Source: Escherichia coli (lineage in GTDB: Bacteria > Pseudomonadota > Gammaproteobacteria > Enterobacterales > Enterobacteriaceae). Taken from it: DNA of 64,000 bases. The notes beneath the pieces are model-generated. The model was not told the DNA's origin. It was given only the letters and a program-made list of their open reading frames with translations, and made no database searches. Below are positions 12,032 through 14,550 of this stretch, piece after piece. The stretch's first letter is position 1. The number at the start of each line of letters is the position of its first letter. Where the stretch lies: the NCBI RefSeq assembly GCF_041248615.1, contig NZ_CP158426.1. One strand, given 5' to 3'. The translations under genes were made by a program, and so were the position numbers.

Positions 12032-12943
12032 ATGATCAAGAAGACAACGGAAATTGATGCCATCTTGTTAAATCTCAATAAGGCTATCGATGCCCACTAC
12101 CAGTGGCTGGTAAGTATGTTTCACAGCGTGGTCGCGAGAGATGCCAGTAAGCCAGAAATAACGGATAACCATTCTTATGGACTGTGCCAGTTTGGTCGGT
12201 GGATTGATCATCTGGGGCCACTCGATAACGATGAATTACCTTATGTTCGGCTAATGGATTCTGCCCATCAACATATGCATAACTGTGGTCGGGAATTAAT
12301 GTTGGCTATTGTTGAAAATCACTGGCAGGACGCGCATTTCGACGCCTTTCAGGAAGGGTTGCTTTCTTTTACTGCGGCATTAACCGATTACAAAATTTAT
12401 TTGCTGACGATCCGTAGCAATATGGATGTTTTGACGGGATTGCCGGGTCGTCGGGTTCTTGATGAATCCTTTGATCATCAGTTACGCAACGCTGAGCCTC
12501 TGAATCTTTATTTAATGTTGTTGGATATTGACCGATTTAAATTGGTTAATGATACCTACGGGCATTTAATCGGCGATGTAGTATTACGCACCCTGGCAAC
12601 TTACTTAGCCAGTTGGACGCGCGATTACGAAACGGTTTATCGCTACGGTGGCGAAGAATTTATCATTATTGTCAAAGCGGCTAATGATGAAGAAGCATGT
12701 CGTGCAGGTATCAGAATTTGCCAGTTAGTCGATAACCATGCCATCACACATTCTGAAGGGCATATCAACATTACCGTGACAGCAGGTGTCAGTCGCGCAT
12801 TTCCTGAAGAGCCTCTGGATGTGGTCATTGGAAGAGCAGACCGGGCAATGTATGAGGGTAAGCAAACCGGAAGAAATCGCTGCATGTTTATTGACGAACA
12901 AAATGTGATTAACCGAGTTTCAGCTCCGTTTAACATTCATTGA
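12032..12943 (+). CDS. dgcZ: zinc-sensing diguanylate cyclase DgcZ
   Basis: ORF track 12026..12943; ATG at 12032 after AGGAG; GGDEF domain with RYGGEEF active-site motif. Confidence 0.9.
   Translation: MIKKTTEIDAILLNLNKAIDAHYQWLVSMFHSVVARDASKPEITDNHSYGLCQFGRWIDHLGPLDNDELPYVRLMDSAHQHMHNCGRELMLAIVENHWQDAHFDAFQEGLLSFTAALTDYKIYLLTIRSNMDVLTGLPGRRVLDESFDHQLRNAEPLNLYLMLLDIDRFKLVNDTYGHLIGDVVLRTLATYLASWTRDYETVYRYGGEEFIIIVKAANDEEACRAGIRICQLVDNHAITHSEGHINITVTAGVSRAFPEEPLDVVIGRADRAMYEGKQTGRNRCMFIDEQNVINRVSAPFNIH
12916..12933 (+). promoter_or_regulatory. PhoP-box-like direct repeat (GTTTCA-N5-GTTTAA) at the 3' end of dgcZ; candidate mgrR promoter element
   Basis: GTTT cores spaced 11 bp apart, about 30-40 bp upstream of the inferred sRNA start. 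Confidence 0.3.
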
Positions 12944-12964
12944 GAAAACTGATGCTACTGTGTC

Positions 12965-13065
12965 AACGATCCGTTATCAGTGCAGGAAAATGCCTGTTAG
13001 CGTAAAAGCAAAACACAAATCTATCCATGCAAGCATTCACCGCCGGTTTACTGGCGGTTTTTTTT
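12965..13065 (+). ncRNA. mgrR: candidate MgrR small RNA (PhoP-regulated, Hfq-dependent) ending in an intrinsic terminator
   Basis: position between dgcZ and mgtS matches the known locus; plus-strand terminator 13040..13065 (CCGCCGG-TTTA-CTGGCGG plus T8); 5' end not determined. Confidence 0.4.
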
Positions 13066-13070
13066 CGCCG

Positions 13071-13112
13071 TCATAAAAATCAGGCCCCTTGTACACAACT
13101 GTAACAAGGGGC
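13071..13112 (-). terminator. Rho-independent terminator of mgtS
   Basis: 10-bp stem GGCCCCTTGT/ACAAGGGGCC followed on the minus strand by TGATTTTTAT. Confidence 0.5.
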
Positions 13113-13140
13113 CGGTTAGGTGAGGGATTATCTCCGTTCA

Positions 13141-13236
13141 TTAGTCATCCCATTTGTGGCTGAAATACGCGGCCAGAAAACCAGAAAATAAAATTATTCC
13201 CAGTACGGCCATAAAAACATTCATATTACCCAGCAT
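13141..13236 (-). CDS. mgtS: 31-aa inner-membrane small protein MgtS (YneM)
   Basis: below ORF-track size cutoff; hand translation gives MLGNMNVFMAVLGIILFSGFLAAYFSHKWDD with GGAGGG RBS. Confidence 0.75.
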   Translation of the reverse strand: MLGNMNVFMAVLGIILFSGFLAAYFSHKWDD

Positions 13237-13362
13237 TATTTCCCTCCGTTTATGGTGTGGTGTGTTTCCTCGCTTACCTTAATTTTCATCTCAATGAGAA
13301 AGATATTAGCAGAGGTAACCTAAACGAAGGATGAATTAAATCTTTATTGTGTTCGACTTAAA

Positions 13363-14550
13363 TCAACAAAGCGCGGGCTGCCCCCACGGTCTTGCACGAA
13401 TTCCTTTTAACATCAGCACCCACGCAGCAATGATCACCAACGCTAAGATGATAAACAGCGAGAAAGGCGGCAGACTGGTAAGCACTATGCCACTCACTAA
13501 TGGGTTAATCGCCGCACCAAGCCAGCCTAAAGACTGAGCGGAAAAATAGCTGGCTTTCATTCCTGGCGGCGCAATATGGTCAATCAACATATACTCGCCC
13601 GGCGCATAAATGATTTCACCGACAGTAAATACCGCAGCTGACATACCCCACAATAGCAGGCTGTTGCCGGAAAAAATAAAACCAACCAGACCGATGACGA
13701 AACAGAGGGTGCCTGCTGTCATCAGCGCGCGGATGTTAGCCGGGTTAAGTCGGCGTCCCACGGAATATTGCAACGTAACTACCATGGCAGCATTAACCGG
13801 AAGAACAACCGCAACCACCTTTTCGGCAAAATCACCATCAGCAATCACCATCACATATTGTGAAATGCATGAAGCAAATGCGCCGCTAACAAAGGAAGCC
13901 AGAAAACCAGAGCAGGTAAACCACAACAGTGCTTTATCTTGTAATAAAACTTTCGGCGACCAGACACTGCCTGTTTCCGTGGCGATGATTTTCTCGCTGC
14001 GCTTTACCCAAATTTGAATGAAAAGCATGGGAAACGCGGAACAGATAGCTGCCAGCCAGAAGGGCAGATTGATGCTCTGCATCACCAACAGCGTGCCGAG
14101 CGGCGGACCGATGGTCCAGCCAATGTTTAGCATGGTGTAGTTGATTGAGAAGATTTTCGTTTTGCTGGTGGACGAAAGATTGTCGGCAAACCAGGCTTTC
14201 AACACGGTAGCAAAAACGGAATAGGCGCAGTTAATAAGGGCAAAAAAGAGCACCACCAGCGTCACGTTATTCACTAAAGGAATGGCAATAAAACCACTGG
14301 CGAAGGCGGTAATTGCCAGTAACATATAGCGTTTCTTGTCGAACTTATCCGCCAGGATACCAAAACCGAGGCTAAAAACGACGCCAATAGTGAGCGCAAT
14401 TGTCATCGCATAACCGATTAGATTGACACTCAGGTTGTACTGGCGACTCAAGTAAATGGTCATAAACGGCAGCGTAGCGCCGCGTCCGATGGTTAATAAC
14501 AACGACGAGGTAAGAAGGGCGCTGGTAGAGCGTCGTAGGGATAAGTTCAT
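13363..14550 (-). CDS. ydeE: MFS efflux transporter YdeE (dipeptide exporter)
   Basis: 395-aa ORF with 12 predicted TM segments; recognised as YdeE. Confidence 0.85.
   Translation of the reverse strand: MNLSLRRSTSALLTSSLLLTIGRGATLPFMTIYLSRQYNLSVNLIGYAMTIALTIGVVFSLGFGILADKFDKKRYMLLAITAFASGFIAIPLVNNVTLVVLFFALINCAYSVFATVLKAWFADNLSSTSKTKIFSINYTMLNIGWTIGPPLGTLLVMQSINLPFWLAAICSAFPMLFIQIWVKRSEKIIATETGSVWSPKVLLQDKALLWFTCSGFLASFVSGAFASCISQYVMVIADGDFAEKVVAVVLPVNAAMVVTLQYSVGRRLNPANIRALMTAGTLCFVIGLVGFIFSGNSLLLWGMSAAVFTVGEIIYAPGEYMLIDHIAPPGMKASYFSAQSLGWLGAAINPLVSGIVLTSLPPFSLFIILALVIIAAWVLMLKGIRARPWGQPALC

What the first reader, a model, noticed from the sequence alone, without database searches (positions are those of the whole stretch)
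12916..13236. Unannotated small-gene pair between dgcZ and ydeE: MgtS (31 aa) and candidate MgrR sRNA
A 96-nt minus-strand ORF, absent from the ORF track, encodes MLGNMNVFMAVLGIILFSGFLAAYFSHKWDD with a strong RBS and its own terminator, matching the Mg2+-responsive small membrane protein MgtS. Between it and dgcZ, a plus-strand intrinsic terminator ends a ~100-nt stretch preceded by a PhoP-box-like direct repeat, consistent with the PhoPQ-dependent sRNA MgrR.
Basis: partly seen in the sequence, partly recalled or inferred. Interest (0 to 1): 0.45.

Follow-up and report, generated by a model that had tools for sequence, protein, structure and literature searches.

The report
Known E. coli mgrR–mgtS magnesium-stress locus

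Summary
The observation and the interpretation both hold. The 96-nt minus-strand ORF at 13141..13236 encodes a peptide identical to E. coli K-12 MgtS (NCBIfam equivalog, 80.6 bits against a cutoff of 35). The plus-strand stretch 12968..13065 is the 98-nt sRNA MgrR. It is 97/98 identical to K-12 gene b4698, on the same strand as dgcZ and convergent with mgtS. Rfam RF01407 (STnc560) matches it at 281.9 bits against a gathering score of 55.

Both genes have the same promoter layout, conserved in Escherichia, Citrobacter and Salmonella: a PhoP box, 12 nt, then TGnTAnnnT.

- The genes are unannotated only in automatic annotations. K-12 RefSeq annotates mgrR, mgtS and mgtT.
It overlaps the mgtS stop, runs through the mgtS terminator and lies 29 nt antisense to MgrR.
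The better-positioned, conserved box is 12927..12943.

One strain-specific detail: a minority allele (149 of 5,426 complete genomes) at 12921 removes the K-12 dgcZ stop. DgcZ gains 7 residues, and its new stop lies inside the mgrR PhoP box.

Novelty: already known. Interest is low.

The parts
12032..12943 (+). dgcZ (diguanylate cyclase DgcZ), 303-aa allele. It is 7 codons longer than K-12 because 12921 is C (TCA) instead of A (TAA). The new stop, TGA 12941..12943, lies inside the mgrR PhoP box.
   Evidence: NCBIfam NF007380, 521 bits. RefSeq annotates 912 nt in the 100%-identical strain TUM14771 against 891 nt in K-12. Alignment. Allele counts: 149 against at least 5,254 genomes.
12916..12921 (+). 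Upstream PhoP half-site-like hexamer AGTTTC (AGTTTA in K-12), 11 bp before the central half-site. Only the GTT is conserved across genera.
12927..12943 (+). Conserved PhoP box of the mgrR promoter, CGTTTA-ACATT-CATTGA, ending 12 nt upstream of the -10 hexamer.
   Evidence: (C/T)GTTTA is invariant and CATTG nearly invariant in 20 loci of Escherichia, Citrobacter and Salmonella. The layout is the same as at the mgtS promoter. PhoP dependence of mgrR comes from the literature. Assignment of these bases as the binding site is an inference.
12953..12961 (+). Extended -10 element of mgrR, TGcTACTGT. The hexamer TACTGT is at 12956..12961, and the transcription start follows 7 nt later at 12968.
   Evidence: Sequence. 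TG and TA..T are conserved. The 5' end comes from the K-12 annotation.
12968..13065 (+). MgrR sRNA, 98 nt. It has a 5' hairpin (12972..13002), an invariant single-stranded core (about 13003..13038) and a Rho-independent terminator (13039..13058 plus U8).
   Evidence: Mapped from K-12 b4698, 97/98 identical. Rfam RF01407, 281.9 bits. Fold. Structure kept in 94% of cells across 15 distinct sequences, 100% in the terminator.
13037..13141 (-). mgtT, 34 aa (MNGDNPSPNRPLVTVVYKGPDFYDGEKKPPVNRR). Its ATG overlaps the mgtS stop (TAATG). The frame runs through the mgtS terminator hairpin, and its last 29 nt are antisense to the MgrR 3' end.
   Evidence: ORF. RefSeq annotation in TUM14771 and in K-12 (b4775). 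Detected as a protein and placed in an operon with mgtS in the literature. Frame length is not conserved outside Escherichia, and there is no codon-position bias.
13073..13113 (-). Intrinsic terminator of mgtS: hairpin 13113..13083, then UGAUUUUUAU.
   Evidence: Fold with z = -3.8. Conserved, with compensatory stem changes, and with a stronger U-tract in Citrobacter.
13141..13236 (-). mgtS (formerly yneM), a 31-aa single-pass inner-membrane protein.
   Evidence: ORF. NCBIfam NF033842, 80.6 bits against a cutoff of 35. Identical to K-12. 31 aa in all 18 loci that carry it. Codon-position diversity is 0.054/0.028/0.22, a coding signature.
13239..13244 (-). Shine-Dalgarno sequence of mgtS: GGAGGG (GGAGGC in K-12; the difference is at 13242).
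13303..13311 (-). Extended -10 element of mgtS, TGCTAATAT. The predicted transcription start is near 13296, giving a 5' UTR of about 60 nt.
   Evidence: Conserved as TGCTA(A/C)TAT across genera. The transcription start is inferred from spacing and was not measured here.
13321..13337 (-). PhoP box of the mgtS promoter, AATTCA-TCCTT-CGTTTA, 12 nt upstream of the -10 hexamer.
   Evidence: Conserved as (A/G)(A/G)TTCA-N5-(C/T)GTTTA in Escherichia, Citrobacter and Salmonella. PhoQP-dependent transcription comes from the literature.
13363..14550 (-). ydeE (MFS efflux transporter), the downstream flanking gene.
   Evidence: NCBIfam NF007472, 796 bits. RefSeq annotation.

Best explanation
The region is the E. 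coli PhoQ/PhoP-controlled mgrR / mgtS-mgtT locus, lying between dgcZ and ydeE.

**How it works**
- When Mg2+ is low, phosphorylated PhoP binds a PhoP box that takes the place of the -35 element at two convergent promoters.
- On the plus strand this drives the 98-nt Hfq-dependent sRNA MgrR (12968..13065). Its invariant single-stranded core base-pairs with target mRNAs such as eptB and represses them, which changes LPS modification.
- On the minus strand it drives mgtS-mgtT.
- MgtS (31 aa, one transmembrane helix) binds and stabilises the Mg2+ importer MgtA. It also acts on the phosphate transporter PitA. Together these raise intracellular Mg2+.
- mgtT (34 aa) is translated from a start codon that overlaps the mgtS stop. 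It has no known function.

**What was shown here and what was not**
- Shown here: gene identities, boundaries, strands, promoter and terminator anatomy, and conservation.
- Taken from the literature: PhoP dependence, Hfq dependence, and the targets eptB, MgtA and PitA.
- Inferred: which bases PhoP contacts, and the mgtS transcription start.
For: **Identity**
- The 601-nt query is 100% identical to an E. coli chromosome, and the locus is present in 5,416 of 5,426 complete genomes.
- K-12 annotates mgtS b4599, mgtT b4775, mgrR b4698 and dgcZ b1535 in exactly this arrangement.
- The window differs from K-12 at 3 of about 414 aligned bases.
- Rfam RF01407 matches at 281.9 bits against a gathering score of 55.
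- NCBIfam MgtS equivalog matches at 80.6 bits against a cutoff of 35.

**Anatomy**
- A terminator with a U8 tail ends MgrR.
- MgrR hairpins are kept across 15 distinct sequences.
- The PhoP box + 12 nt + extended -10 layout is conserved at both promoters across three genera.
- mgtS shows a third-codon-position substitution bias.

**Function, from papers**
- mgrR-lacZ and yneM-lacZ fusions are PhoP-dependent (PMC3536696).
- MgrR is a 98-nt sRNA that represses eptB. MgtS is a 31-aa protein needed for MgtA accumulation. [quoted passage not shown]
- mgtS-mgtT is described as a PhoQP-dependent operon (PMC11429745).
- The MgtT protein was detected (bioRxiv 10.1101/511675).

**Target pairing**
- The best predicted duplex of the MgrR core with the eptB leader covers the eptB start codon, at -18.7 kcal/mol.
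Against: Nothing contradicts the identification. The weak points are these.
- PhoP-box matches are degenerate. Matches of that quality are not enriched in the window.
- Covariation in MgrR is thin because the species sampled are close relatives: 2 pairs have double changes, and 25 of 500 shuffles reach the observed score.
- The eptB duplex is only marginally better than controls, which reach it 4-7% of the time.
- No expression data for this particular strain could be examined.
- The primary MgrR and MgtS papers (Moon & Gottesman 2009; Wang 2017; Yin 2019) are not held in the library. Their content is cited second-hand.
Confidence: 0.97

Rival explanations
1. The plus-strand RNA is not an independent PhoP-driven sRNA in this strain. 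Instead it is mainly the 3' UTR of dgcZ. There is no terminator between the dgcZ stop (12943) and the MgrR terminator, so dgcZ transcripts would end at 13065 and could be processed to an MgrR-like fragment.
For: The only plus-strand terminator between 12700 and 13500 is the MgrR terminator. In this allele the dgcZ reading frame even runs into the PhoP box.
Against: - The -10 element, PhoP box and 5' end are conserved in Citrobacter and Salmonella, where the upstream sequence is unrelated to dgcZ.
- Published mgrR-lacZ fusions carrying only the promoter up to +10 are PhoP-dependent.
- The two routes are not exclusive. dgcZ read-through probably adds a longer transcript without replacing the sRNA promoter.
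Confidence: 0.02
2. The A->C change at 12921 turns the upstream half-site AGTTTA into AGTTTC. In this lineage it weakens or abolishes PhoP activation of mgrR, so the sRNA gene is present but poorly induced.
For: - The K-12 allele gives a 10/12 match to the PhoP consensus over 12916..12932. The window allele gives 9/12.
- The C allele is rare, at 149 of 5,426 genomes.
Against: - The sixth base of that half-site is not conserved in other genera, where C, T and G all occur. Some Citrobacter carry the same AGTTTC or GATTTC.
- Another Escherichia representative has T at this position.
- The invariant central half-site, the promoter-proximal half-site and the -10 element are untouched.
Confidence: 0.08
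3. The small ORFs and hairpins are chance features of an intergenic region, with no genes there.
For: Short ORFs of 20-40 aa are abundant on all six frames here: 73 ORFs in 4.5 kb.
Against: Curated family hits lie far above threshold. The sequence is identical to experimentally characterised K-12 genes. mgtS has a coding-type substitution pattern. The literature supports both genes.
Confidence: 0.005

Closest known systems
E. coli K-12 mgrR (b4698), which corresponds to Rfam RF01407 'STnc560' (the Salmonella name; the equivalence is from my own knowledge and was not confirmed in the held papers)
   Same: Same position between dgcZ and mgtS, same strand relation, and same 98-nt length. 97/98 nt are identical. 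The terminator and the invariant core are the same.
   Different: One substitution at nt +4: C here, T in K-12. C is also the Rfam consensus base. The Rfam model (214 nt, hit at 12934..13147) is much wider than the RNA. It also covers the promoter, the mgtS terminator and most of mgtT, so its hit boundaries are not the RNA ends.
E. coli K-12 MgtS (YneM, b4599; NCBIfam NF033842)
   Same: Identical 31-aa sequence. Same genomic context, same PhoP-box promoter layout and same terminator.
   Different: Non-coding differences only. The Shine-Dalgarno sequence is GGAGGG rather than GGAGGC (13242). One base differs in the spacer of the PhoP box (13331 A against C in K-12).
E. coli K-12 MgtT (b4775)
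   Same: Identical 34-aa sequence and the same TAATG stop/start overlap with mgtS.
   Different: Nothing differs within E. coli. Across genera the frame is 9 to 66 aa long, so it behaves like a young or lineage-restricted ORF.
Canonical PhoP-activated promoters (PhoP box (T/G)GTTTA-N5-(T/G)GTTTA at the -35 position, as described for E. coli in PMC7667037)
   Same: A direct repeat with 11-bp periodicity replaces the -35 element, 12 nt upstream of the -10, at both mgrR and mgtS.
   Different: - Both boxes are degenerate: one good half-site (C/TGTTTA) and one weak one (CATTGA at mgrR, AATTCA at mgtS).
- The good half-site is promoter-distal at mgrR and promoter-proximal at mgtS.
- mgrR has a possible third half-site further upstream.

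Membership tests
MgtS (NCBIfam NF033842, equivalog) | Score above the curated cutoff over the full 31-residue profile | tested here: met
   80.6 bits against a cutoff of 35, residues 1-31 of 31.
MgtS (NCBIfam NF033842, equivalog) | Sequence identity to the experimentally characterised K-12 protein, and 31-aa length | tested here: met
   Identical to the K-12 translation. 31 aa in all 18 loci that carry it.
MgtS (NCBIfam NF033842, equivalog) | Single hydrophobic transmembrane segment | tested here: met
   Read directly from the sequence: VFMAVLGIILFSGFLAAYF (residues 7-25) is uninterrupted hydrophobic sequence flanked by polar ends. Membrane localisation is reported.
MgtS (NCBIfam NF033842, equivalog) | PhoQP-dependent, low-Mg2+-induced expression; stabilises MgtA | not testable with these tools
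   Literature only. A conserved PhoP-box promoter was found here.
MgrR sRNA (Rfam RF01407 STnc560; K-12 b4698) | Covariance-model score above the gathering threshold | tested here: met
   281.9 bits against 55, E = 1.8e-64, full model length.
MgrR sRNA (Rfam RF01407 STnc560; K-12 b4698) | Orthologous position and strand: between dgcZ and mgtS, convergent with mgtS | tested here: met
   K-12 coordinates map to 12968..13065 on the plus strand.
MgrR sRNA (Rfam RF01407 STnc560; K-12 b4698) | Hfq-type sRNA architecture: Rho-independent terminator with a long U tail and a single-stranded seed region | tested here: met
   8-bp GC-rich stem plus U8. A 37-nt unpaired core is invariant across genera. 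Note that the probe lay inside this core, which forces part of the invariance.
MgrR sRNA (Rfam RF01407 STnc560; K-12 b4698) | Secondary structure supported by covariation | tested here: inconclusive
   94% of cells are paired and 2 pairs have double changes, but 25 of 500 shuffles reach the score. The sequences are too similar.
MgrR sRNA (Rfam RF01407 STnc560; K-12 b4698) | Base-pairing with the eptB translation-initiation region | tested here: inconclusive
   The best duplex pairs MgrR nt 54-72 with eptB -11..+8, at -18.7 kcal/mol. 4-7% of controls do as well. Repression is reported in the literature.
MgrR sRNA (Rfam RF01407 STnc560; K-12 b4698) | PhoP-dependent transcription | not testable with these tools
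   Literature. A positionally conserved PhoP box was found, but the motif match alone is at chance level.
MgtT (K-12 b4775) | ORF with its ATG overlapping the mgtS stop, 34 aa, identical to the K-12 protein | tested here: met
MgtT (K-12 b4775) | Conserved as a protein (purifying selection) beyond Escherichia | tested here: not met
   Frame length ranges from 9 to 66 aa. Codon-position diversity is 0.116/0.226/0.208, with no third-position excess. The test uses a small sample of 8-13 codons.

The most novel reading that the evidence does not exclude
mgtT may matter as a cis-acting translated element rather than as a protein.

- Full-length mgtT can be translated only from transcripts that read through the mgtS terminator.
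- Ribosomes entering mgtT through the TAATG overlap would cover the 5' arm of that hairpin (codons 9-13).
- mgtT translation could therefore suppress termination and extend the mgtS transcript antisense into the 3' end of MgrR.
- That would create the RNase III-dependent signal published at the position equivalent to window 13066. It would couple MgtS/MgtT translation to MgrR processing or stability.
- The dgcZ stop-loss allele of this lineage adds a further possibility, also untested: ribosomes and dgcZ transcription now run into the mgrR PhoP box.
Probability: 0.08. Interest if true: 0.5.

Novelty: already known. Interest (0 to 1): 0.08.

Why it matters
For the scan, the result matters mainly as a calibration point. 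PGAP lists mgtS and mgtT but no mgrR.

Biologically the locus is textbook material for the PhoQ/PhoP low-Mg2+ response: LPS modification through MgrR and eptB, and Mg2+ import through MgtS and MgtA.

The only points not obviously in the literature are small.
- mgtT shows no protein-level conservation outside Escherichia, although its start codon is conserved.
- Both promoters share one conserved PhoP box + 12 nt + extended -10 design.
- In 2.7% of complete E. coli genomes, a lineage allele lengthens DgcZ by seven residues and places its stop codon inside the mgrR PhoP box.

Tried and rejected
- **Primary papers.** I tried to read Moon & Gottesman 2009 (PMID 19889087 / PMC2841474), Wang 2017 (PMC5465934) and Yin 2019 (PMC6351178). 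None is held. The published PhoP-box coordinates for mgrR could therefore not be checked, and function is cited from secondary papers.
- **STnc560 = MgrR.** I searched for a paper that equates the two names and found none in the library. The equivalence rests on the Rfam hit coinciding with K-12 b4698 and on my own knowledge.
- **PhoP consensus scan.** The window-wide scan shows that the motif alone is uninformative at 3 mismatches or fewer. I rejected it as stand-alone evidence.
- **Covariation test of MgrR.** It was underpowered. The exact-match probe used for the genome scan retrieved only close relatives (Escherichia, Citrobacter, one Salmonella). It also forced invariance of 21 nt of the core.
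- **eptB duplex prediction.** It was only marginally significant.
- **Chance ORF, and 'dgcZ 3' UTR only'.** I considered and rejected both readings; see the rival explanations.
- **dgcZ and MgrR in the literature.** A search for a dgcZ/ydeH-MgrR link listed no paper on dgcZ read-through into mgrR. One listed paper holds both terms (PMC8545128), and I did not open it.
Full report
**1. What is in the sequence**

Between two long ORFs lies a 420-bp intergenic region (12944..13362).
- The upstream ORF is 12032..12943 on the plus strand. It matches the NCBIfam DgcZ equivalog at 521 bits.
- The downstream ORF is 13363..14550 on the minus strand. It matches the YdeE equivalog at 796 bits.

GGAGGG sits 5 nt before its ATG.

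On the plus strand, a GC-rich 8-bp stem (13039..13058) followed by eight T's is the only terminator-like site in 12700..13500 on that strand.

**2. Identity**

A 601-nt query around the finding is 100% identical to an E. coli chromosome, strain TUM14771. The locus is present in 5,416 of 5,426 complete E. coli genomes.

RefSeq annotates dgcZ, mgtT, mgtS and ydeE in that strain. In K-12 MG1655 the curated record has:
- mgtS, b4599, at 1622646..1622741 (+)
- mgtT, b4775, at 1622741..1622845 (+)
- mgrR, b4698, at 1622817..1622914 (-)
- dgcZ, b1535, at 1622960..1623850 (-)

The window is the reverse complement of that arrangement and aligns without gaps.
- mgrR therefore maps to 12968..13065 on the plus strand. 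It is 98 nt long and 97/98 identical to K-12.
- mgtS maps to 13141..13236 on the minus strand.
- mgtT maps to 13037..13141 on the minus strand.

Independent family tests agree.
- Rfam RF01407 (STnc560, Hfq-binding RNA) matches 12934..13147 at 281.9 bits against a gathering score of 55. It is the only Rfam hit in the 64 kb.
- The peptide matches the NCBIfam MgtS equivalog at 80.6 bits against a cutoff of 35.

The Rfam model is 214 nt long. It also spans the promoter, the mgtS terminator and most of mgtT, so its hit boundaries are not the RNA ends.

**3. Anatomy of the two promoters**

I retrieved 20 loci from one-genome-per-species collections with a 21-nt probe from the MgrR core. They come from Escherichia (coli clade representative, albertii, whittamii), about 14 Citrobacter species and Salmonella enterica subsp. 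arizonae.

For mgrR, the alignment shows this conserved block:
- (C/T)GTTTA-N5-(C/T)ATTG(A/G), at window 12927..12943
- then 12 nt
- then TGnTA..T, the extended -10 (window 12953..12961)
- then the annotated 5' end, 7 nt later, at 12968

An upstream GTT, 11 bp before the central half-site (window 12916..12921, AGTTTC), is partly conserved. It may be a third half-site.

For mgtS, the alignment of upstream regions shows the mirror-image arrangement:
- (A/G)(A/G)TTCA-N5-(C/T)GTTTA, at window 13337..13321 on the minus strand
- then 12 nt
- then TGCTA(A/C)TAT, at 13311..13303

This predicts a transcription start near 13296.

As a bare motif these boxes are weak. The window holds 183 sites with 3 or fewer mismatches to KGTTTA-N5-KGTTTA, against 163 +/- 12 expected. 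The case for PhoP control therefore rests on three things: position, cross-genus conservation, and published genetics. The published evidence is as follows.
- mgrR-lacZ and yneM-lacZ fusions follow PhoP levels (PMC3536696).
- mgtS-mgtT reporter activity is PhoQ-dependent (PMC11429745).

**4. The RNAs and proteins**

*MgrR.*
- It folds into a 5' hairpin, a long unpaired core and the terminator, at -25.9 kcal/mol with z = -2.5.
- Across 15 distinct sequences, 94% of cells stay paired. In the terminator the figure is 100%.
- Only two pairs show double changes, and 25 of 500 shuffles reach the covariation score.
- Structure is therefore preserved, but the covariation test is underpowered.
- The core's best predicted duplex with the K-12 eptB leader covers the eptB start codon: MgrR nt 54-72 with eptB -11..+8, at -18.7 kcal/mol.
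- That agrees with the published repression of eptB. It is only marginally better than controls, which reach it 4-7% of the time.

*MgtS.*
- It is 31 aa in all 18 loci that carry it.
- Its substitutions concentrate at third codon positions: diversity 0.054/0.028/0.22.

*The mgtS terminator.*
- The hairpin spans 13113..13083 and is followed by UGAUUUUUAU, with z = -3.8.
- It is conserved, with compensatory TTGT/ACAA <-> TTGC/GCAA changes.
- Citrobacter has a stronger U-tract.

**5.

- The 34-aa ORF at 13037..13141 (minus strand) starts at an ATG that overlaps the mgtS stop (TAATG).
- It runs through the terminator hairpin and ends 29 nt inside the antisense of MgrR.
- The protein was detected by tagging after ribosome profiling (10.1101/511675).
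- It is induced by low Mg2+, is not membrane-associated, and has no deletion or overexpression phenotype (PMC11429745).
- In my comparison the ATG overlap and roughly the first 13 codons are kept in all loci. The frame is 9 to 66 aa long outside Escherichia and shows no third-position bias: 0.116/0.226/0.208.
- Conservation therefore looks nucleotide-level, not protein-level.
- Because the mgtT stop lies beyond the terminator's U-tract, full-length MgtT needs read-through transcripts. Those transcripts are antisense to the MgrR 3' end.
- A published RNase III-dependent site at K-12 1622816 maps to window 13066, next to the MgrR 3' end. The authors attributed it to antisense transcription (PMC5371410).
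- This supports the speculative cis-element reading in the novel case. I did not test it.

**6. Strain-specific differences from K-12**

- *12921, C for A.* The K-12 dgcZ stop TAA becomes TCA. DgcZ becomes 303 aa (+SAPFNIH), and its new stop TGA (12941..12943) lies inside the mgrR PhoP box. It also changes the upstream half-site AGTTTA to AGTTTC.
  - The C allele is in 149 of 5,426 complete genomes. The A allele is in at least 5,254.
  - A divergent Escherichia representative has T (TTA, also no stop).
  - That base is not conserved in other genera, and some Citrobacter have the same hexamer. I therefore think loss of PhoP control is unlikely (rival 2, probability about 0.08).
- *12971, C for T.* This is nt +4 of MgrR. 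C is the Rfam consensus base.
- *13242.* The mgtS Shine-Dalgarno sequence is GGAGGG rather than GGAGGC.
- *13331.* One base differs in the spacer of the mgtS PhoP box.

**7. Verdict**

The finding is real and correctly interpreted, and the locus is already known in detail. Nothing in the anatomy departs from the K-12 locus except the minor allelic points above. Novelty: already known. Interest: low.

Noticed in passing
window 12920..12943: dgcZ stop-loss allele. 12921 is C (TCA) where K-12 has A (TAA), so DgcZ is 303 aa instead of 296 aa (+SAPFNIH). Its new stop TGA (12941..12943) sits inside the conserved mgrR PhoP box. The C allele is in 149 of 5,426 complete E. coli genomes. A divergent Escherichia representative (L010) has T (TTA), which also removes the stop.
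   Followed up: yes
window 61087..61103 (+) and 62093..62109 (-): The only zero-mismatch PhoP-box consensus in the 64 kb is TGTTTAGTCGCTGTTTA. A -10-like CATAAT follows 11 nt later. The box lies about 275 nt upstream of a FimA-like major-subunit gene (ATG at 61379) of a yde/F9-type chaperone-usher fimbrial operon. A 1-mismatch box lies between the subunit and chaperone genes. The upstream box region is present in 4,775 of 5,426 genomes. It stays a perfect consensus match (GGTTTA variant) in a K-12-like strain, where the subunit gene is deleted. A literature search for F9 fimbriae + PhoP returned 5 papers. I opened none; no title or abstract start indicated such a link.
   Followed up: partly
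L006 (SMXE01000224.1, labelled MAG: Caldithrix sp.), whole locus: This contig begins inside mgrR. Over the mgrR-mgtS region it matches K-12 at the three positions where K-12 differs from the window (12971, 13242, 13331). It is almost certainly E. coli contamination or mis-binning in that metagenome-assembled genome.
   Followed up: partly
L021 (CAAEVH010000055.1, labelled uncultured Raoultella sp. MAG): The mgrR-mgtS region is nearly identical to Citrobacter braakii (L013), so the taxonomic label of the MAG contig looks wrong.
   Followed up: no
L012 (Citrobacter amalonaticus), region downstream of mgrR: mgrR, with its promoter and terminator, is present, but no mgtS follows it. The sequence after the MgrR terminator is unrelated. 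The sRNA and the small-protein gene are therefore not always linked.
   Followed up: no
window 12944..13065 (+): No terminator lies between the dgcZ stop and the MgrR terminator. dgcZ transcripts in Escherichia probably carry the whole MgrR sequence as their 3' UTR. In Citrobacter and Salmonella the sequence upstream of mgrR is unrelated to dgcZ.
   Followed up: partly
window about 13060..13085 compared with loci L003..L022: Most Citrobacter species carry a 35-45-nt insertion between the MgrR terminator and the mgtS terminator that Escherichia lacks. In Escherichia the two convergent terminators are only about 17 nt apart. This is what allows the mgtT frame to reach into the MgrR antisense.
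   Followed up: no
window 61000 region compared with NZ_CP128875.1: The window is 100% identical to strain TUM14771 around the finding. It is not collinear with that genome 48 kb away, where coordinates are offset by about 880 nt. The window's source strain is therefore related to TUM14771 but not identical.
   Followed up: no
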